Below, one piece after another: positions 1,739 through 43,959 of a stretch of 64,000 nt of DNA. The notes below the pieces were generated by a model that did not search any database, was not told where the DNA came from, and worked only from the letters and a program-made list of their open reading frames with translations. The translations under genes were made by a program, and so were the position numbers. The stretch is from NCBI RefSeq assembly GCF_055900595.2, contig NZ_CM148325.1; one strand, 5' to 3'. Position 1 is the first letter of the stretch, and each line of letters begins with the position of its first letter.

Positions 1739-3121
1739 TTATCCCACCAGCATCCAGGTCGCCGGAACTGAGGCAATTAACAGCATGCCAATCAGCACCA
1801 TTTCCTGACGATTCAGTACATTATCATGTGTATGCGTTTTACGCGCGTACAGGAAGACCAGTAGCCCTGGCGCATACAGAACGACGGACAACAGCAGATG
1901 CATTGGACCAGAGGCGTACAATAACCATAAGCCATAAATGCAGGCACCGACACCTACCGCTTTATGCAGTGGACGGGTTGCAATTTTCAGCAAGAACGCG
2001 CCGACCAGGAAATAAGGTACCAGAATCATTTCTGAGGCGATGGTCAGCAACGTGTTGTAATCGGAACCGGTCAGCCAGATCAGTACCAGACAAATTTGCA
2101 CGCAGATATTGGTCAGCCACAGTGAGGCGGATGGCGCGGCTTGTGCGTTCTGGCGCGCAAAAATGCGCGGGAATGCTTTATGGGTGGCTGCCAGGAACGG
2201 AACTTCTGCCGCCATGATGGTCCAGCTTAAGTACGCACCGCAAACGGAAACGATCAAACCGGCAGCGATGATGATTTCGCCCCACGGTCCCATCATTTCC
2301 ACCATCAGACCGGCCATTGACGGGTTACGAATTTCAGCCAGTTCAGGACGTGCTACCACGCCCAGCGAAAGCAGCGTTACCAGCAAGTAAACGCCCAGAG
2401 CGGAGAGAACCGCCAGCAGTGTTGCTTTACCTACATCACGTTTATTACGCGCACGCGCCGAAACGACCACAGCACCTTCCACACCAATGAAAACCCACAG
2501 GGTGATCAGCATGGTGTTTTTCACCTGTTCCCATACCGGTACGCCAAGTGCAAGGCCAGTAAAGTCGAGCTTGAAGGTGTCCAGTTTGAACATCATCATC
2601 GCCAGCACAATAAACAGGCCCAGCGGCAACAATTTTGCCAGTGTCGCCACCAGGTTAATGCTGGCAGCGGTTTGTACCCCGCGCAGGATCAAAAAGTGAA
2701 CAATCCACAATAAAGCCGAGGCACCGACGATCGATTGCCAGGTATTGCCATCGCCAAACAGACGCAATTCCGGCGTGTCCGTAAAAAAGCTTAACGCGGA
2801 AAAAACGATCACCAGATAGGAGACGTTGGCGATAACCGCGCACAGCCAGTACCCCCATGCGGAACAAAAGCCGATTAACTCACCAAACCCTTCGCGGGCA
2901 TAGGTAAAGATGCCGCCGTCAAGCTCGGGGCGAATGCGTGTGAGGATCAGCATGGCAAAGGCCAGCAATAAAATGCCAGCACCAGTAATGCTCCAGCCGA
3001 TGAGCAGTGCTGCCGGGCTGGCAACTGCCGCCATATTTTGCGGCAGACTGAAAACACCCGCGCCCAGCATTGAGCTTAATACCAGCGCGGTGAGTGCGCT
3101 CAGTCCCAGTTTCTTTTCCAT
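1739..3121 (-). CDS. ydgI: APC-family amino acid transporter (arginine:ornithine antiporter-like) YdgI
   Basis: 460-aa polytopic membrane ORF MEKKLGLSALTALVLSSMLGAGVFSLPQNMA... with the GAGVFSLP transporter signature. Confidence 0.9.
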   Translation of the reverse strand: MEKKLGLSALTALVLSSMLGAGVFSLPQNMAAVASPAALLIGWSITGAGILLLAFAMLILTRIRPELDGGIFTYAREGFGELIGFCSAWGYWLCAVIANVSYLVIVFSALSFFTDTPELRLFGDGNTWQSIVGASALLWIVHFLILRGVQTAASINLVATLAKLLPLGLFIVLAMMMFKLDTFKLDFTGLALGVPVWEQVKNTMLITLWVFIGVEGAVVVSARARNKRDVGKATLLAVLSALGVYLLVTLLSLGVVARPELAEIRNPSMAGLMVEMMGPWGEIIIAAGLIVSVCGAYLSWTIMAAEVPFLAATHKAFPRIFARQNAQAAPSASLWLTNICVQICLVLIWLTGSDYNTLLTIASEMILVPYFLVGAFLLKIATRPLHKAVGVGACIYGLWLLYASGPMHLLLSVVLYAPGLLVFLYARKTHTHDNVLNRQEMVLIGMLLIASVPATWMLVG

Positions 3122-37397: not shown

Positions 37398-38036
37398 TTA
37401 AATATCTTTTTGAATTTTAAAGCATACTCCCAATATGCAAGATAGATCATCCAGCATAATTGAAGGGTAGCGAGGATTCGTGGGGACTAAAAGAATATCC
37501 GGCCCTTCTATCTCCAGTTTGCGAATGACAGGCGTTGTGGTCCCTTTGGGTAAGGCAAGGACAATATTTCCTGGTTGTACGATTCGATCGGGATCAACAA
37601 AAACTGTTGAACCATTTGGGATGGAAACTCCACCACCAGATGTCGACATACTGTCACTCTCTAGAACAACAGCAAAGGTATTGGCCGGGATTTCTCCGAC
37701 AAGCTGCACACAAGAGGTTATTGAGGAATTTTTCATATAATCACTCCAGCTTGCTGCCTGCTGAAGTGATAGTAGCGGAACCGTTTTTATCGGCGGTAAA
37801 GATAGATCAAGCGAATCACCTGTATTTAACTCTCCTCCATTAAGAAGCCAATTTTCGTTTACTTTCAATATCTTTGCCAGTGAGCTTATGTAACGCGAGG
37901 ACGGCGCTCCTCCACCGTTCATCCATTGACTTACGGAGCCTTTTGATGCGCCAGTGGCATTGACAAGGTCTTTGCCTTTCAAGTTTAGCGCATGCATACG
38001 TTGGGTTATGCGTTCAGATATTGTTTGCTTGTTCAT
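37398..38036 (-). CDS. CI-like prophage repressor (XRE HTH + LexA/S24 autopeptidase domain)
   Basis: 212-aa ORF; N-terminal HTH (...LKGKDLVNATGASKGSVSQWMNGG...) and C-terminal S24 fold with ESDSMSTSGGG serine motif; divergent from the Cro-like gene. Confidence 0.85.
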   Translation of the reverse strand: MNKQTISERITQRMHALNLKGKDLVNATGASKGSVSQWMNGGGAPSSRYISSLAKILKVNENWLLNGGELNTGDSLDLSLPPIKTVPLLSLQQAASWSDYMKNSSITSCVQLVGEIPANTFAVVLESDSMSTSGGGVSIPNGSTVFVDPDRIVQPGNIVLALPKGTTTPVIRKLEIEGPDILLVPTNPRYPSIMLDDLSCILGVCFKIQKDI

Positions 38037-38127
38037 GTTTTGATTTTAAAACACAGATGGTTTTGTTTCTTGACTTTCTTTGGTTTTGATTATTAAACTT
38101 TTGGCGTTCAGTTTTATGGAGCGAATC
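38037..38127. promoter_or_regulatory. Divergent repressor/cro promoter-operator region with three phased GTTTTG(A/T)TT repeats
   Basis: GTTTTGATTTT (38037), GTTTTGTTTC (38060), GTTTTGATT (38083) at 23-bp spacing between divergent start codons; TTGACT -35-like hexamer at 38070. Confidence 0.45.
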
Positions 38128-38370: not shown

Positions 38371-38779
38371 ACACATCCGCATGGCGATGAATGCCTGGGC
38401 ACGTCCTGATGGCGAAAAAGTTCCGGCAGCTGGAATAACCCAGGCTTATTTTGAGTTGGGTATGACGTTTCCTAAACTGTACGACGACAGCCATCCGGAA
38501 GCCCTGGCTCGCAATACCCAGAAAATTTTCCGCTGGATAGAGAAAGACACCCCTGATGCAGTTGAAAAAATTCAGGCGTTGTTACCAGCGATCGAAAAGG
38601 CAATGCCACCTTTGCTGGTGGCCAGAATGCGCAGCCACAGTTCAGCTTATTTTCGGGAGCTGGTGGAGACGCGGGAGCGACTGGTGAGAGACGCTGATGA
38701 TTTTGTCGCAGTGGCAATCGCCGGTTTCAATCAGATGAACCGTGGTGGCCCGGCTGGAAATGCTGTGGCAGTACATTGA
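38354..38779 (+). CDS. YdaT-like early regulatory protein (CII-position gene)
   Basis: 141-aa ORF MKIKHEHIRMAMNAWARPDGEKVPAAG...; N-terminus matches Rac YdaT (MKIKHEHI...) as I recall it; RBS AAGGGGGG. Confidence 0.6.
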   Translation: MKIKHEHIRMAMNAWARPDGEKVPAAGITQAYFELGMTFPKLYDDSHPEALARNTQKIFRWIEKDTPDAVEKIQALLPAIEKAMPPLLVARMRSHSSAYFRELVETRERLVRDADDFVAVAIAGFNQMNRGGPAGNAVAVH

Positions 38780-38850
38780 CTGACAATAGCCATATCGAAT
38801 CGCTTCCGGCAACTCGTGAGTAAAAAGATTCGGTATCAGAAGAGGTGAGT

Positions 38851-39921
38851 ATGGCTAACGCCTGGCTCAGATTATGGCATGACATGCCAAATGACCCTAA
38901 GTGGCGAACAATTGCCAGGGTGTCAGGGCAGCCAATTGCAACAGTGATGGCAGTGTATATCCACCTCCTGGTGAGCGCGTCACGAAATGTCACGCGAGGT
39001 CACATTGATGTCACGACAGAAGATTTGGCAAGTGCGCTCGACGTGACAGAAGAGGTAATTGATTCAATTTTGCAGACGATGCAGGGGCGGGTACTTGATG
39101 GTGATTTAATCACTGGATGGGAAAAACGCCAGGTGCTGAAAGAGGACAACGGTAATATTTCGCAAACCGCAAAATCTCCGGCAGAGCGCAAGAGGGCGCA
39201 GCGAGAGAGGGAAAGAAAGCGGGAACAAAATGGCGATTGTCACGGCGAGTCACGAAATGTCACGCACATGTCACGACGAGTCACGACAGATAAAGATACA
39301 GATAAAGATACAGATCAAGAAGATCAAAACACTATGGTCCATGGCGTAAAAAACGCCGCGAACCAGGCAGGGGATGTTCAGACCGTCAATCTTGGTCAGC
39401 CAGCAGGCACGACACCGGAAGCCGATTCAGCGTATGCGCTGAAAGCCGATTCGGGCGCTGTGCAGCAGGTGATGACCGCAAGGCAGGAGCAATCACACCA
39501 ACTTCAGCAGCCTGAAGCCGATTCCGCCATTCAGCGGGAAGCCGATCGGGTAGTCCCGGAAAACACCGGGCAGCCTGTGGGACGAGTGGATTATCCTGAT
39601 GTGTTCGAACAGGTCTGGCGGGAATACCCGTTGCGTGCCGGGGCAAACCCGAAGAAATCCGCTTTCAGTGCCTGGAAGGCCAGATTACGCGAGGGGGTGC
39701 CACCAGAGGCCATGCTGGATGGCGTGAGGCGTTACGCAAGATACCTGGCGGCTACCGGGAAAACGGGAACGGAATTTGTTCAGCGAGCGACGACGTTTTT
39801 TGGACCGGACCGGAATTTTGAAAACCCCTGGTTGCTCCCGGTAAGCGGTACGAACAACCAGCGTTGTGTGAATCATATTTCTGAACCGGATACCGAAATT
39901 CCACCGGGCTTCAGGGGGTAA
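38851..39921 (+). CDS. Phage replication initiation protein (DUF1376/YdaU-like, lambda O-position) containing internal iterons
   Basis: ORF MANAWLRLWHDMPNDPKWRTIARVSGQPIATVMAVYIHLLV...; position after the cro/cII-like genes; internal phased GTCACG repeats. Confidence 0.6.
   Translation: MANAWLRLWHDMPNDPKWRTIARVSGQPIATVMAVYIHLLVSASRNVTRGHIDVTTEDLASALDVTEEVIDSILQTMQGRVLDGDLITGWEKRQVLKEDNGNISQTAKSPAERKRAQRERERKREQNGDCHGESRNVTHMSRRVTTDKDTDKDTDQEDQNTMVHGVKNAANQAGDVQTVNLGQPAGTTPEADSAYALKADSGAVQQVMTARQEQSHQLQQPEADSAIQREADRVVPENTGQPVGRVDYPDVFEQVWREYPLRAGANPKKSAFSAWKARLREGVPPEAMLDGVRRYARYLAATGKTGTEFVQRATTFFGPDRNFENPWLLPVSGTNNQRCVNHISEPDTEIPPGFRG
38979..39015. repeat. Iteron cluster A (4 x GTCAC(G/A) at 10-11 bp phasing) inside the replication gene
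   Basis: GTCACG at 38979, 38989, 39010 and GTCACA at 38999; shares 17-mer GTCACGAAATGTCACGC with cluster B. Confidence 0.55.
39239..39330. repeat. Iteron cluster B (5 x GTCACG at 10-11 bp phasing) plus adjacent A-rich tract; candidate phage ori
   Basis: GTCACG at 39239, 39249, 39259, 39270, 39280 followed by GATAAAGATACAGATAAAGATACAGATCAAGAAGATCAAAAC. Confidence 0.55.
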
Positions 39922-39961
39922 GTGTGTATTTCAGGTCATGAGGTAATTTTCAGGAGGACTT

Positions 39962-40387
39962 GTGGCAAAAGTTTTTACACAAGAAGAGCGAGAAAAAATT
40001 AAGGGGCAGGTTGTTGAACTTGTACGTCTGAGTGGTCGCGAGACGTTACGGGCTCTGGAGGCTAAAACCGGTGCATCAAGGTATTACATAAGCACTCTCG
40101 CCAGAGAGCTGGTTGCCAGCGGCGATGTATACAACTCTGGTTACGGATTATTCCCGTCTGAACAGGCTCGTAAGGACTGGCAAAATGCCCGCAAAAAACT
40201 CTCAAGGGCAAAGCTGAAGAAAAAAACATCTGTGGTTGATCCGGACCTTATCTGGTCATTACCTGACGGAGAAATACGTCGCTACGACAGTCGTCTAAAC
40301 ATAATCTGTCGCGAGTGCCGGAAGAGCGAAGTTATGCAGCGCATACTGGCATTTTATCAGGGAAATGTTTGGTATTTATTGAAATGA
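39962..40387 (+). CDS. Hypothetical prophage early protein
   Basis: 141-aa ORF (GTG start) (M)AKVFTQEEREKIKGQVVELVRLSGRETLRALEAKTGASRYYISTLARELV... ; basic, possible HTH. Confidence 0.45.
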   Translation: MAKVFTQEEREKIKGQVVELVRLSGRETLRALEAKTGASRYYISTLARELVASGDVYNSGYGLFPSEQARKDWQNARKKLSRAKLKKKTSVVDPDLIWSLPDGEIRRYDSRLNIICRECRKSEVMQRILAFYQGNVWYLLK

Positions 40388-40627: not shown

Positions 40628-40855
40628 ATGCCAGCTTATGCTAATAAAGGCGGTAATTCGGGTATAGTGTTTTATGAGATTACTCCAGATGCTATCACAG
40701 TACAGTTTAAAGATGGATGGAAATACGTTTACGATTCTACAAAACCAGGGGCTTCAACGGTCTCTAGGATGAAAGAGTTAGCCCAGGCTGGGCATGGGCT
40801 AAATAGTTTTATTAGTAGTGTGGTTAAGAAAAATTTCTCACGTAAATACCTTTAA
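40628..40855 (+). CDS. KTSC-domain small protein
   Basis: 75-aa ORF MPAYANKGGNSGIVFYEITPDAITVQFKDGWKYVYDSTKPGASTVSRMKELAQAGHGLNSFISSVVKKNFSRKYL fits the KTSC pattern; RBS TAAGGA; followed by hairpin GAGGGTG...CACCCTC. Confidence 0.6.
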   Translation: MPAYANKGGNSGIVFYEITPDAITVQFKDGWKYVYDSTKPGASTVSRMKELAQAGHGLNSFISSVVKKNFSRKYL

Positions 40856-42202: not shown

Positions 42203-42817
42203 ATGCAGAATTTATCTCAACAGTTGTTAGAAGCATATGACAAGGAGTGCCGCAAAGAGCTTTCGATCGCGTTAGCACAGGCTTATCTTCATTCGCATAT
42301 GAAGGCAAAAGAGTTTGGTTCTTTTTGGGCTCAAGCACAGTCATATTTGCGCTGGTTTTATGCCGATGCATTGCTTGAGAATGCGGCTAAGCGTGTGGGG
42401 CTGGATTTTGAAGTCGGTAGCAATGCTGCTAAAAATTGTAAACACATTGCGATTCACTCGAACAACTGGAAAATGACGGCACATCATTTATCGGGTAATG
42501 CGCCACTTCCTAAGCAGGCATTGTATAGAGCTGTTTACGCTAATCAAAATTATGAATTGAATTTTGGGGATGAAAATGCCGACTCCCTGGATGGGAGAGC
42601 GTCTGGTGGACATGTTTATATGTTACATGATGGCAGTAATCAGCACTTGTCCAAACTGAATTTAACTGTTCCTTCTTCGGATAATTACGGGATTCTTTAT
42701 ACTGAGTCTTTACCAATTATGACGATGGTAGAAGTTGAAGCAGAAAATGTGGATTCTGAGATTGAAGATAAAATCAAGATTCTTACCGAACAAATAATTA
42801 AATCACAGCAATCATGA
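42203..42817 (+). CDS. Uncharacterised protein, upstream partner of the HTH-peptidase gene (candidate toxin/effector)
   Basis: 204-aa ORF MQNLSQQLLEAYDKECRKELSIALAQAYLHSHMKAKEFGSFW...; RBS AAGGA; stop overlaps the next gene's start (ATGA); no motif recognised; AT-rich. Confidence 0.7.
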   Translation: MQNLSQQLLEAYDKECRKELSIALAQAYLHSHMKAKEFGSFWAQAQSYLRWFYADALLENAAKRVGLDFEVGSNAAKNCKHIAIHSNNWKMTAHHLSGNAPLPKQALYRAVYANQNYELNFGDENADSLDGRASGGHVYMLHDGSNQHLSKLNLTVPSSDNYGILYTESLPIMTMVEVEAENVDSEIEDKIKILTEQIIKSQQS

Positions 42818-43959
42818 GCATGAATATCGCACAAACACCATTTACTGATAAATCGTTTAATCCTCGTCGCCTTGAGGAGGCAAGAGAGGCAAAAGGGTTG
42901 ACGATGGCTGAACTTGCCAGAGTGCTCAATATTTCAAGACAAGCTATTTCGTCATTTGAGAAGGGGTTGAAGTCTCCCTCTGCTGATACACTTTCTGCAA
43001 TAGCCAAGGTGTTAGGATTTCCAGAACGATTTTTCTTAGCCTCCAGTGCTTCTCCATCTCTGGAGGGGGCGATTCATTTTAGAAGTCGTTCAACTGCGAC
43101 CAAAAAGGCTCGAGTTACAGGGAAAACACGTGGGCGTTGGGCGGCATTAATATTGGATGAATGTCTAAAATATGCTCAATTACCAGATGTGGTTCTGCCT
43201 GAATTCGATATTATTGATTTTGAGGTTCTGTCTCTATCTGATATTGAGGATATGTCCACCCAATTAAGGCGTTTTTGGGGGTTAGGTGATGGTCCAATAC
43301 TCAATTTAACTAGACTTGTTGAAAATAAAGGAATCGTGGTTTCTCATTTACCTTCTGGTGAGAAAGTTGATGCCTTTTCGTTCTGGCATAATGGGCGGCC
43401 TTTAATTATGTTAGATAGCTCGAAGACGGCTGTTCGCATGCGATTTAGTCTTGCTCATGAACTTGGCCATTTAATTATGCATAGGGCAGTGGAGGATGAC
43501 TACCTGAATGATAAAGAATTATTCGACCTGGTGGAGTTGCAGGCCGATTATTTTGCCTCCAGCTTTTTAATGCCAGCCACCACTTTCGGGCGTGAATTTT
43601 ATAGTCCAAATTTATCAGCGTTAGAACGATTAAAACTACGTTGGATTACATCTATCGGTAGTATTGCCATGAGGAGTCATAGCCTTAAGTTAATCAGCGA
43701 TAATCAGAAAAGCTATATATTTAAGCAATTAGCGCCATTCCATCGTAGGGAGCCGTTAGATGATGCAATCCCAAAAGAAGAGCCTGAGTTACTTAATAAG
43801 TTACTTTTACTTCTTGATAAGCATTCAATCATAAAGGTAACTGAGTTAACTGATATCTTTGCTCTTCCCTTAAATGAGTTATCTGCAATTACACGATTTA
43901 AAGAATCAGATATGATTCATTCTGACAATGTTATTTCATTTACCATAAAACAAAAATAA
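42814..43959 (+). CDS. XRE-family HTH fused to ImmA/IrrE-type zinc metallopeptidase
   Basis: 381-aa ORF; N-terminal HTH (...LTMAELARVLNISRQAISSFEKGLKSPSADTLSAIAKVLGF...) and HExxH motif in ...RFSLAHELGHLIMH...; translationally coupled to upstream gene. Confidence 0.8.
   Translation: MSMNIAQTPFTDKSFNPRRLEEAREAKGLTMAELARVLNISRQAISSFEKGLKSPSADTLSAIAKVLGFPERFFLASSASPSLEGAIHFRSRSTATKKARVTGKTRGRWAALILDECLKYAQLPDVVLPEFDIIDFEVLSLSDIEDMSTQLRRFWGLGDGPILNLTRLVENKGIVVSHLPSGEKVDAFSFWHNGRPLIMLDSSKTAVRMRFSLAHELGHLIMHRAVEDDYLNDKELFDLVELQADYFASSFLMPATTFGREFYSPNLSALERLKLRWITSIGSIAMRSHSLKLISDNQKSYIFKQLAPFHRREPLDDAIPKEEPELLNKLLLLLDKHSIIKVTELTDIFALPLNELSAITRFKESDMIHSDNVISFTIKQK

What the first reader, a model, noticed from the sequence alone, without database searches (positions are those of the whole stretch)
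38979..39330. Phased GTCACG iterons plus A-rich tract inside the replication gene: candidate prophage origin
Nine copies of GTCAC(G/A) in two clusters (38979, 38989, 38999, 39010 and 39239, 39249, 39259, 39270, 39280), each spaced 10-11 bp (one helical turn), with a shared 17-mer GTCACGAAATGTCACGC. Cluster B is followed by an A-rich repeat (GATAAAGATACAGATAAAGATACAGATCAAG). This mirrors lambda, where ori iterons and an AT-rich region lie inside the O gene. Here they lie inside a DUF1376/YdaU-like gene, and the iterons also encode a repeated peptide (…RNVT…/…RRVTTD…).
Basis: partly seen in the sequence, partly recalled or inferred. Interest (0 to 1): 0.55.

Follow-up and report, generated by a model that had tools for sequence, protein, structure and literature searches.

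The report
Phage replication origin inside initiator gene
The phased GTCACG repeats and the A-rich tract are real and are most likely the replication origin of a Qin-like E. coli prophage, lying inside the gene of the protein that binds them; this is a familiar phage design, seen here in a large initiator family that has not been described.

Summary
Nine GTCAC(G/A) copies sit on the + strand in two arrays (38979-39015 and 39239-39285) spaced 10-11 bp, with one inverted copy at 39042-39047. Ten of the window's 55 copies fall within 310 bp. The gene's lowest-GC stretch (25% GC) follows array B.

The motif occupies all three codon phases. Its third-codon positions are invariant across E. coli, Pseudomonas and Aeromonas phages (14/14 against 28/124 elsewhere), so selection acts on the DNA.

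Relatives of the N-terminal domain keep the same layout: two arrays at the same gene offsets, then an A-rich tract. The repeated word changes by lineage (GTCACG, GTAACG, GTGACG, GCAACG, GAACGC). A prophage with the same C-terminal half but an unrelated N-terminal half has no GTCAC at all.

The best reading is an iteron-type origin bound by the N-terminal winged-helix module of its own gene product, analogous to lambda O/ori, SPP1 gp38/oriL and TP901-1 ORF13.

The label "DUF1376/YdaU-like" is not supported; the N-domain matches no Pfam family above threshold. Binding and origin firing are inferred, not shown. I rate it a new variant of a known kind, of moderate interest.

The parts
38851..39921 (+). 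Replication initiator gene (356 aa). It has an N-terminal winged-helix module (aa 1-~126), a disordered linker (aa ~127-165) and a C-terminal module with a DnaT-like tail.
   Evidence: The ORF is, and PGAP annotates the same CDS in an identical strain. PHROG 3729 'replication initiation protein' matches at E=1e-256 over 1-356/356. There is no Pfam hit above threshold.
38851..39135 (+). Coding sequence of the winged-helix domain (aa 1-95), the presumed iteron-binding module.
38979..39015 (+). Iteron array A: 4 x GTCAC(G/A), spaced 10, 10, 11 bp. It encodes aa 43-55, the H1-S1-H2 connection of the winged helix.
   Evidence: The hexamers are invariant in the E. coli, Pseudomonas and Aeromonas phage alignment. 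The array is expanded to 6 copies (+21 bp, +7 aa) in L004 and absent in relative L099.
39042..39047 (-). A single inverted GTCACG copy between the arrays. It overlaps the conserved codons for D-V-T.
   Evidence: It is present at the same offset (+193) in L002, L003 and L004. It is not general across other iteron types, so its significance is uncertain.
39239..39285 (+). Iteron array B: 5 x GTCACG, spaced 10, 10, 11, 10 bp. It encodes aa 130-145 of the disordered linker and is the presumed core of the origin.
   Evidence: TRF period 10/11. It is present in every relative examined, including L099, which lacks array A.
39286..39330 (.). A-rich, low-GC tract (ACAGATAAAGAT x2.9, two GATC sites at 39313 and 39322). 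It is the presumed DNA unwinding element, encodes TDKDTDKDTDQEDQN, and is also the junction between exchangeable N- and C-modules.
   Evidence: It holds the lowest-GC 40-mer of the gene (25%). The same position holds the lowest-GC 40-mer in 9 of 11 family members. AGATAAAGATA is invariant from E. coli to Aeromonas. Homology to L004-type genes ends, and homology to L005-type genes begins, within 39309-39326.
39859..39918 (+). Coding sequence of the C-terminal 20 aa (QRCVNHISEPDTEIPPGFRG), which resembles the C-terminal tail of host DnaT. It is a presumed docking motif for host replication proteins.
   Evidence: BLASTP against E. coli K-12 DnaT gives 14/20 identical at the extreme C-termini. Supporting hits come from the NCBIfam DnaT model positions 156-179 and PDB DnaT chains 6aep, 2ru8 and 9zbt.
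38070..38099 (+). A pR-like promoter candidate upstream of the cro-like, YdaT/cII-like and rep genes. It could provide transcription through the origin (context only).
   Evidence: A consensus scan matches 9/12, which is no more than shuffles give. The evidence is weak.

Best explanation
The region 38979-39330 is a two-part, iteron-type origin of theta replication for a Qin-like lambdoid prophage, embedded in the gene of its own initiator.

Shown by sequence and comparison:
- Two arrays of a 6-bp core (GTCACG) repeat once per helical turn, all on the coding strand.
- Array B is followed at once by the least stable (25% GC, A-rich) stretch of the gene.
- The element sits at the boundary between the N-terminal module and an exchangeable C-terminal module.
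- The repeated word changes with the lineage of the N-terminal domain, while the positions of the arrays stay fixed.

Inferred mechanism:
1. The early rightward transcript (cro-like, YdaT/cII-like, rep) produces the initiator.
2. Its N-terminal winged-helix module binds the iterons head-to-tail along one face of the DNA at both arrays.
3. The two arrays interact, wrapping or looping the 229-bp spacer into an O-some-like complex that melts the adjoining A-rich tract. Array B plus the A-rich tract is the core; array A is auxiliary, because one relative lacks it.
4. The C-terminal module, ending in a DnaT-like tail, recruits host helicase-loading proteins. This replication module contains no phage helicase or loader gene.
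For: Clustering and phasing:
- Ten copies fall in 310 bp against 0.27 expected.

Selection on the DNA rather than the protein:
- The motif occupies all three codon phases.
- Third-codon positions within shared iterons are invariant in 14/14 cases, against 28/124 elsewhere in the N-domain, among E. coli, Pseudomonas and Aeromonas phages (Fisher p=1e-8).
- 76 near-identical IMG/VR loci have 23 variable sites in the first 480 nt, none of them in an iteron.

Co-variation with the N-terminal domain:
- Relatives carry the same two arrays at about +130 and +350-430 of the gene but with different words: GCAACG (Ralstonia phage Firinga), GAACGC, GTAACG, GTGACG, AACGCG.
- Loop and linker peptide footprints agree within a protein in 122 of 125 classifiable representatives.
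- L005 has the same C-terminal half and a different N-terminal half; it has zero GTCAC and instead carries AAGGGGCTT arrays.

Unwinding tract and modularity:
- The A-rich minimum follows array B in 9 of 11 family members.
- The module junction lies at 39309-39326.
- The array grows by two iterons (21 bp, 7 aa) in L004. This parallels the two extra iterons and 13 extra aa in Stx-phage O proteins (PMC7466680).

Protein and context:
- The N-domain is a winged helix of DnaD-NTD type.
- The gene is the PHROG 'replication initiation protein' and sits where lambdoid phages keep O.
- Seven records deposited as phage genomes hold the whole 1301-nt query (rep gene and its flanks) at 96-98.5% identity.

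Precedents for an origin inside the initiator gene:
- lambda, SPP1 gp38/oriL, and TP901-1 ORF13 and Tuc2009 Rep2009.
Against: - No experiment exists for this family; I found none in the held literature.
- Binding by the N-terminal domain is inferred from co-variation only.
- The best structural match, the DnaD N-terminal domain, is an oligomerisation scaffold in DnaD rather than its main DNA-binding part.
- The putative recognition helix and wing (AMQGRVLDG..GW) are nearly the same in lineages with different iteron words, so the specificity determinants are not identified.
- The conserved spacing between arrays is tied to the length of the protein domain, so it is not independent evidence.
- In the strain with identical sequence, the integrase and cro genes are annotated as frameshifted. 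This particular copy may therefore never fire.
Confidence: 0.75

Rival explanations
1. The arrays are binding sites for the gene's own product but serve control rather than initiation (autoregulation, copy-number handcuffing, or exclusion of related phages). The true start site would lie elsewhere in the prophage.
For: Two separated arrays resemble control or incompatibility iterons of plasmids (own knowledge). Array A is dispensable in one lineage. Cloned phage origins act as titrating 'Per' elements.
Against: No other GTCAC cluster exists in the 64-kb window. Array B is always followed by the least stable tract of the gene, which is typical of an unwinding element and not needed for control. 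The characterised precedents with repeats inside the initiator gene are origins.
Confidence: 0.12
2. The repeats are sites for another regulator. One candidate is the upstream YdaT/cII-like activator, by analogy with lambda CII, which binds direct repeats 10 bp apart (own knowledge). Another is a host protein driving an antisense promoter inside the rep gene.
For: The cII-like gene lies immediately upstream. A weak promoter-like match on the - strand overlaps array B (39263-39236).
Against: The YdaT proteins of the window and of L005 are 88% identical although their rep genes carry unrelated iterons. Relatives with the same layout have no YdaT gene. The promoter-like count equals the shuffle expectation. 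The word follows the rep N-domain, not the neighbouring genes.
Confidence: 0.04
3. The repeats are a by-product of a repeated peptide, or of slippage and recombination in a low-complexity linker, with no DNA-level function.
For: The arrays encode similar peptides (RNVT, RRVT). Array B and the A-rich tract lie in a disordered linker, and copy number varies between strains.
Against: The motif is read in all three frames. Third-codon positions are frozen. Array A lies inside a well-folded domain. The same offsets carry different words in different lineages, and those words match between the two arrays of each gene.
Confidence: 0.03

Closest known systems
Bacteriophage lambda O protein / ori-lambda (and the Stx-phage variants)
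   Same: The origin lies in the middle of the initiator gene. Iterons are followed by an AT-rich tract. The origin sits at the boundary between an origin-specific N-terminal part and a C-terminal part that deals with helicase delivery. Extra iterons lengthen the protein. The gene sits downstream of cro/cII in the rightward operon (gene order).
   Different: There is no sequence relationship: no Pfam Phage_rep_O hit. From my own knowledge, lambda has one cluster of four roughly 19-bp inverted-repeat iterons bound by O dimers. Here there are two arrays of short direct repeats at 10-11 bp, 229 bp apart, with array A inside the DNA-binding domain's coding sequence. No P-like gene follows in this prophage.
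SPP1 gp38 (replisome organizer) / oriL; lactococcal TP901-1 ORF13 and Tuc2009 Rep2009
   Same: The initiator binds direct repeats located within its own gene, next to an AT-rich unwinding element. The N-terminal winged-helix-type module has a weak full-length match to Pfam Phage_rep_org_N (model positions 1-119 of 121).
   Different: The Pfam match is below threshold (E 0.036-0.24; 0 of 76 members at E<=1e-3). hhalign of the family profile against SPP1 gp38 finds nothing. The SPP1 gene 38 repeats found here (a 9-bp-period AACAATGAT array) have a different layout. SPP1 has a second origin elsewhere in its genome; none is seen in this window. The hosts are Gram-positive.
DnaD N-terminal domain (Bacillus replication initiation protein)
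   Different: Sequence identity is about 10%. The DnaD N-terminal domain is mainly an oligomerisation scaffold, and DnaD is not known to have its binding sites inside its own gene (own knowledge).
E. coli DnaT (primosomal protein I)
   Same: The last 20 residues are 70% identical to the DnaT C-terminus. Sister genes with the same N-module carry the DnaT C-terminal ssDNA-binding domain (58% identity; Pfam DnaT in 7 of 76 members).
   Different: The window protein lacks the DnaT N-terminal and C-terminal domains proper. The function of the DnaT tail was not found in the literature read.

Membership tests
Iteron-type theta origin embedded in its initiator gene (functional class) | Three or more direct repeats of one word, phased about one helical turn apart | tested here: met
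   There are 4 + 5 copies at 10-11 bp.
Iteron-type theta origin embedded in its initiator gene (functional class) | An adjacent A+T-rich, easily melted tract | tested here: met
   A 25% GC 40-mer follows array B directly. The same holds in 9 of 11 relatives.
Iteron-type theta origin embedded in its initiator gene (functional class) | The repeat word is specific to, and co-evolves with, the initiator encoded in cis | tested here: met
   Six different words track lineages of the N-domain. L005, with another N-domain, has none of them.
Iteron-type theta origin embedded in its initiator gene (functional class) | The initiator binds the repeats, and the fragment supports replication | not testable with these tools
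   This needs EMSA or footprinting and an ori-cloning assay.
Lambda O family (Pfam Phage_rep_O) | Sequence homology to the O N-terminal domain | tested here: not met
   There was no Pfam hit for the protein or for any of 76 family members.
Lambda O family (Pfam Phage_rep_O) | A partner P-type helicase loader encoded downstream | tested here: not met
   The next gene is DUF977/Ren-like. A sister gene (L004) does have 'replication protein P' downstream.
   No hit for the window protein, for 76 relatives, or for the L005 protein.
Phage replisome organizer, N-terminal domain (Pfam PF09681; SPP1 gp38 type) | A significant match to the family profile | tested here: inconclusive
   E is 0.24 for the full protein and 0.036 for the N-domain alone, but the alignment spans the whole model. 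0 of 76 members reach E<=1e-3. hhalign against SPP1 gp38 gives probability 0.2%. PHROG 'replisome organizer' families 4880 and 5968 hit at 5e-6 and 1e-4.
Phage replisome organizer, N-terminal domain (Pfam PF09681; SPP1 gp38 type) | A winged-helix fold of the DnaD-NTD kind | tested here: met
DnaT (primosomal protein I) | The DnaT C-terminal ssDNA-binding domain (Pfam PF17948) | tested here: not met
   It is absent from the window protein. Only the last 20-24 residues match.

The most novel reading that the evidence does not exclude
This could be the signature of a large, un-annotated family of phage initiators (over 2000 clusters at 50% identity, no Pfam family). In this family the origin's iterons are written into two fixed places of the initiator's own gene, one of them inside the winged-helix domain. 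A change of iteron word would then necessarily rewrite a loop of the protein that reads it. If the iteron-encoded loop (aa 43-55) or linker takes part in DNA recognition or oligomerisation, site and reader would be physically coupled in one stretch of DNA, which would give a built-in route to new origin specificities. Separately, the DnaT-like tail could mean that a loader-less initiator fires its origin by borrowing the host replication-restart machinery.
Probability: 0.15. Interest if true: 0.7.

Novelty: new variant of a known kind. Interest (0 to 1): 0.42.

Why it matters
It gives a precise, testable origin (about 350 bp) and cognate initiator for a replication module present in roughly 30% of complete E. 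coli genomes (1645 of 5426) and in phages of Pseudomonas, Aeromonas, Ralstonia and others. The family-wide rule is two arrays at fixed gene offsets, a lineage-specific word of the form NNN-ACG, then an A-rich tract. With it, origin position and specificity can be read directly from sequence for more than a thousand uncharacterised phage initiators. The natural word switches (GTC/GTA/GTG/GCA/CGA + ACG) form a ready-made series for studying how initiator-origin specificity evolves. The DnaT-like tail and the absence of a loader gene point to a route of host helicase recruitment that could be tested.

Tried and rejected
- **The search for related loci on IMG/VR.** It returned only 99-100% identical loci. 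They were useful for copy-number variation but not for diversity. Diversity came from tblastn on phage records and from representative proteins plus look-up of encoding contigs.
- **DUF1376/YdaU label.** Rejected by Pfam.
- **Homology to SPP1 gp38.** hhalign found nothing.
- **RNA element.** No Rfam match at E<=1.
- **Peptide-repeat origin of the DNA repeat.** Rejected because of the frame changes.
- **YdaT/cII-like protein as the binder.** Rejected.
- **DnaA-box-like TATATCCAC at 38955-38963, just upstream of array A.** It is not conserved in the Pseudomonas and Aeromonas sequences, so I treat it as chance.
- **Cyanophage relatives (L089-L091).** They showed no clear phased exact 5-mer arrays. 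Either the layout is not universal or the repeats are too degenerate for an exact-word scan.
- **Rac oriJ literature.** Not followed, because the gene is not YdaU-like.
- **TP901-1 and r1t primary papers.** Not held in the library.
- **Function of the DnaT C-terminal tail.** Not found in the 2017 review or the 2026 preprimosome paper.
- **ParR/parC-type centromere (two sets of phased direct repeats).** Considered from memory and rejected: there are no partition genes, and the arrays sit in a replication gene of an integrated lambdoid prophage.

Full report
**1. Observation**

The sequence and a pattern search show GTCAC(G/A) on the + strand at two sets of positions:
- array A: 38979, 38989, 38999, 39010;
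- array B: 39239, 39249, 39259, 39270, 39280.

These are exactly the positions reported. A tenth, inverted copy lies at 39042-39047.

The window as a whole has the number of GTCACR expected by chance (55 against 55.2 in shuffles). However, ten copies lie within 310 bp, where 0.27 are expected. None of 20,000 random placements put more than six copies in such a span.

Other details also check out:
- Spacings are 10-11 bp.
- The 17-mer GTCACGAAATGTCACGC is shared by both arrays.
- Tandem Repeats Finder reports the period 10/11 array, and directly after it ACAGATAAAGAT x2.9 at 39286-39320.
- The 40-mer starting at gene offset 440 has 25% GC in a gene of 54% GC. It is the minimum of the gene.

**2. 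The repeat is selected as DNA, not as peptide**

The G of the motif falls in codon phases 3,1,2,1 in array A and 2,3,1,3,1 in array B. The similar peptides (SRNVT, RRVT) are therefore a consequence of the DNA repeat.

I aligned the N-terminal 414 nt from the window, an E. coli variant (L004), Pseudomonas phage phita81A (L002) and Aeromonas phage pAEv1818 (L003). These are about 70% identical at the DNA level. All 14 third-codon positions inside the shared hexamers are invariant, against 28 of 124 elsewhere (Fisher p = 1e-8).

Among 76 near-identical IMG/VR loci, 23 sites vary in the first 480 nt and none lies in an iteron. No Rfam family matches the region.

**3. The gene**

The repeats lie in the 356-aa ORF 38851-39921. 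An identical strain annotates it as 'hypothetical protein'. The surrounding region is a Qin-like lambdoid prophage next to rspB. Its gene order is: RecE-like exonuclease, dicB, ydfA-C, repressor, cro/DicC-like, YdaT/cII-like, this gene, DUF977/Ren-like.

On family assignment:
- PHROG 3729 'replication initiation protein' matches end to end at E = 1e-256.
- Pfam gives no significant hit. In particular there is no DUF1376 and no Phage_rep_O. There is only a sub-threshold, full-length alignment to Phage_rep_org_N (E 0.24, or 0.036 for the N-domain alone).
- None of 76 diverse relatives reaches E<=1e-3 for that family, and none hits DUF1376.

An AlphaFold2 model of aa 1-165 has pLDDT above 90 for aa 11-95 and is a winged helix. 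In this model array A encodes the H1-S1-H2 connection (aa 43-55). Array B and the A-rich tract encode a disordered linker (aa 130-160).

The last 20 residues are 70% identical to the C-terminus of E. coli DnaT.

**4. Comparative evidence that the arrays belong to the N-terminal module**

Within E. coli, megablast shows that the gene is a mosaic:
- Some genomes share only query 1-609 (N-module through the A-rich tract).
- Others share only query 627-1227 (C-module).
- The junction therefore lies at window 39309-39326, inside the A-rich tract.

L004 shares the N-module and carries 6 + 5 iterons. The two extra copies add 21 bp and 7 aa.

L005 shares the C-module but has an unrelated N-terminal half. 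It has no GTCAC at all, and instead has two arrays of AAGGGGCTT about 256 bp apart.

The N-domain family is large: 2252 representative clusters at E<=1e-3. In distant members whose DNA I could fetch, the layout is the same: an array at about +130 and an array at about +350-430 of the gene, all on the coding strand. The word differs by lineage:

| Word | Loci |
|---|---|
| GCAACG | Ralstonia phage Firinga (L088) |
| GAACGC | L086, L095 |
| GTAACG | L092-L094 |
| GTGACG | L100 |
| AACGCG | L087 |

All words share an ACG core.

In 9 of 11 members the lowest-GC 40-mer of the whole gene follows array B. L099 lacks array A but keeps three GTCACGC copies and the A-rich tract. This points to array B plus the A-rich tract as the core element.

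At the protein level, the loop and linker 'footprints' of the word agree within a protein in 122 of 125 classifiable representatives.

The neighbouring YdaT/cII-like proteins of the window and of L005 are 88% identical, although their iterons are unrelated. Several relatives have no YdaT gene. The word therefore follows the rep N-module and not its neighbours.

**5. Mechanism**

What is shown is the anatomy, its conservation and the co-variation. The following steps are inferred:
1. The N-terminal winged-helix module binds the iterons head-to-tail on one face of the helix at both arrays.
2. The two arrays cooperate across the 229-bp spacer to form an O-some-like complex.
3. That complex melts the adjacent A-rich tract.
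4. The C-terminal module brings in the helicase.

In relatives, the same N-module is fused to other C-modules (DnaT domain, Phg_2220_C). It is followed by different partner genes: P-like, DnaC-like ATPase, DnaB, or primase-helicase. This fits a division of labour between origin recognition and helicase recruitment.

In the window no helicase or loader gene follows. Seven records deposited as phage genomes hold the whole query (38700-40000: the end of the YdaT/cII-like gene, the rep gene, the 40-nt spacer and the first 39 nt of the DUF977 gene) at 96-98.5% identity, so they show the same rep-to-DUF977 arrangement. The DnaT-like tail suggests that the protein docks onto host replication-restart or helicase-loading proteins. 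The role of that tail in DnaT itself was not found in the papers read, so this step is speculative.

**6. Comparison with known systems**

An origin inside the initiator gene, made of iterons plus an AT-rich tract, is classical:
- lambda and Stx phages (PMC7466680);
- SPP1 gp38/oriL (PMC6316719);
- TP901-1 ORF13 and Tuc2009 Rep2009 (PMC8965321).

The present element works like these but is not a demonstrable member of their protein families. Its layout also differs: short direct repeats once per turn, two arrays, one of which lies inside the coding sequence of the DNA-binding domain, and a word that switches between lineages at fixed positions. I found no description of this family or its iterons in the held literature. 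That library is incomplete, so an earlier description cannot be excluded.

**7. Verdict**

The origin interpretation is well supported computationally, with confidence about 0.75 that it is the origin and higher that it is the initiator's binding array. The DUF1376/YdaU label is wrong. I rate it a new variant of a known kind, of moderate interest. In the strain with identical sequence, the prophage has frameshifted integrase and cro annotations, so this particular copy may be a relic of a module that works in related phages.

Noticed in passing
L005:2165-2197 and L005:2421-2455 (E. coli O157:H7 prophage rep gene 1981-3072): This rep gene has the same C-terminal half as the window's gene but an unrelated N-terminal half with no Pfam hit. 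It carries its own two arrays of 3 x AAGGGGCTT at 11-bp spacing, about 256 bp apart. The two-array design therefore recurs with a different N-domain.
   Followed up: partly
window 39859-39918: The last 20 residues of the initiator (QRCVNHISEPDTEIPPGFRG) are 70% identical to the extreme C-terminus of host DnaT. The Aeromonas phage homologue, with a different C-module, also ends in ..KPPGFN. This may be a short docking motif copied from the host.
   Followed up: partly
window 39922-40387, compared with L005:3079-4617: In the window the rep gene is followed directly by DUF977/Ren-like. In L005 the same C-module is followed by a DnaC-like ATP-binding protein and a DUF1627 gene before DUF977. The window's module is therefore loader-less.
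   Followed up: partly
L004:2780-2837 (E. coli strain 3059): Array A has 6 iterons instead of 4. The extra 21 bp add 7 aa (TCHGVSL) in a loop of the winged-helix domain. This parallels the two extra iterons and 13 extra residues in the O proteins of Stx phages.
   Followed up: yes
proteins P0017, P0047, P0059, P0072, P0077: Some family members have a greatly expanded linker with many more ..VT..VT..VT.. footprints. This suggests that array B has grown to a dozen or more iterons or has been duplicated.
   Followed up: no
L099:305-1312: This family member lacks array A (its loop reads VSEVRGTLSSWED) but keeps 3 x GTCACGC and the A-rich tract at the array B position.
   Followed up: yes
window 42203-43959: Two overlapping + strand ORFs lie downstream of hokD. 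One is a 204-aa protein of unknown function. The other is a 381-aa protein with an N-terminal HTH and an HExxH motif (SLAHELGHLIMH), resembling an ImmA/IrrE-type metallopeptidase. They may form a regulatory or defence pair.
   Followed up: no
window 40628-40855: This 75-aa ORF matches internal segments of large PHROG families, including one annotated as virion structural protein (phrog_17428 positions 67-138 of 768; phrog_24656). Such a match is odd for a gene in the early region.
   Followed up: no
window 37398-38036 (- strand), compared with L001:6700-7038: The window has an intact 212-aa repressor-like ORF (DicA-like HTH plus LexA/UmuD-like peptidase domain). PGAP annotates only the C-terminal 113 aa in the identical strain. 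It also marks the cro-like gene and the integrase as frameshifted.
   Followed up: no
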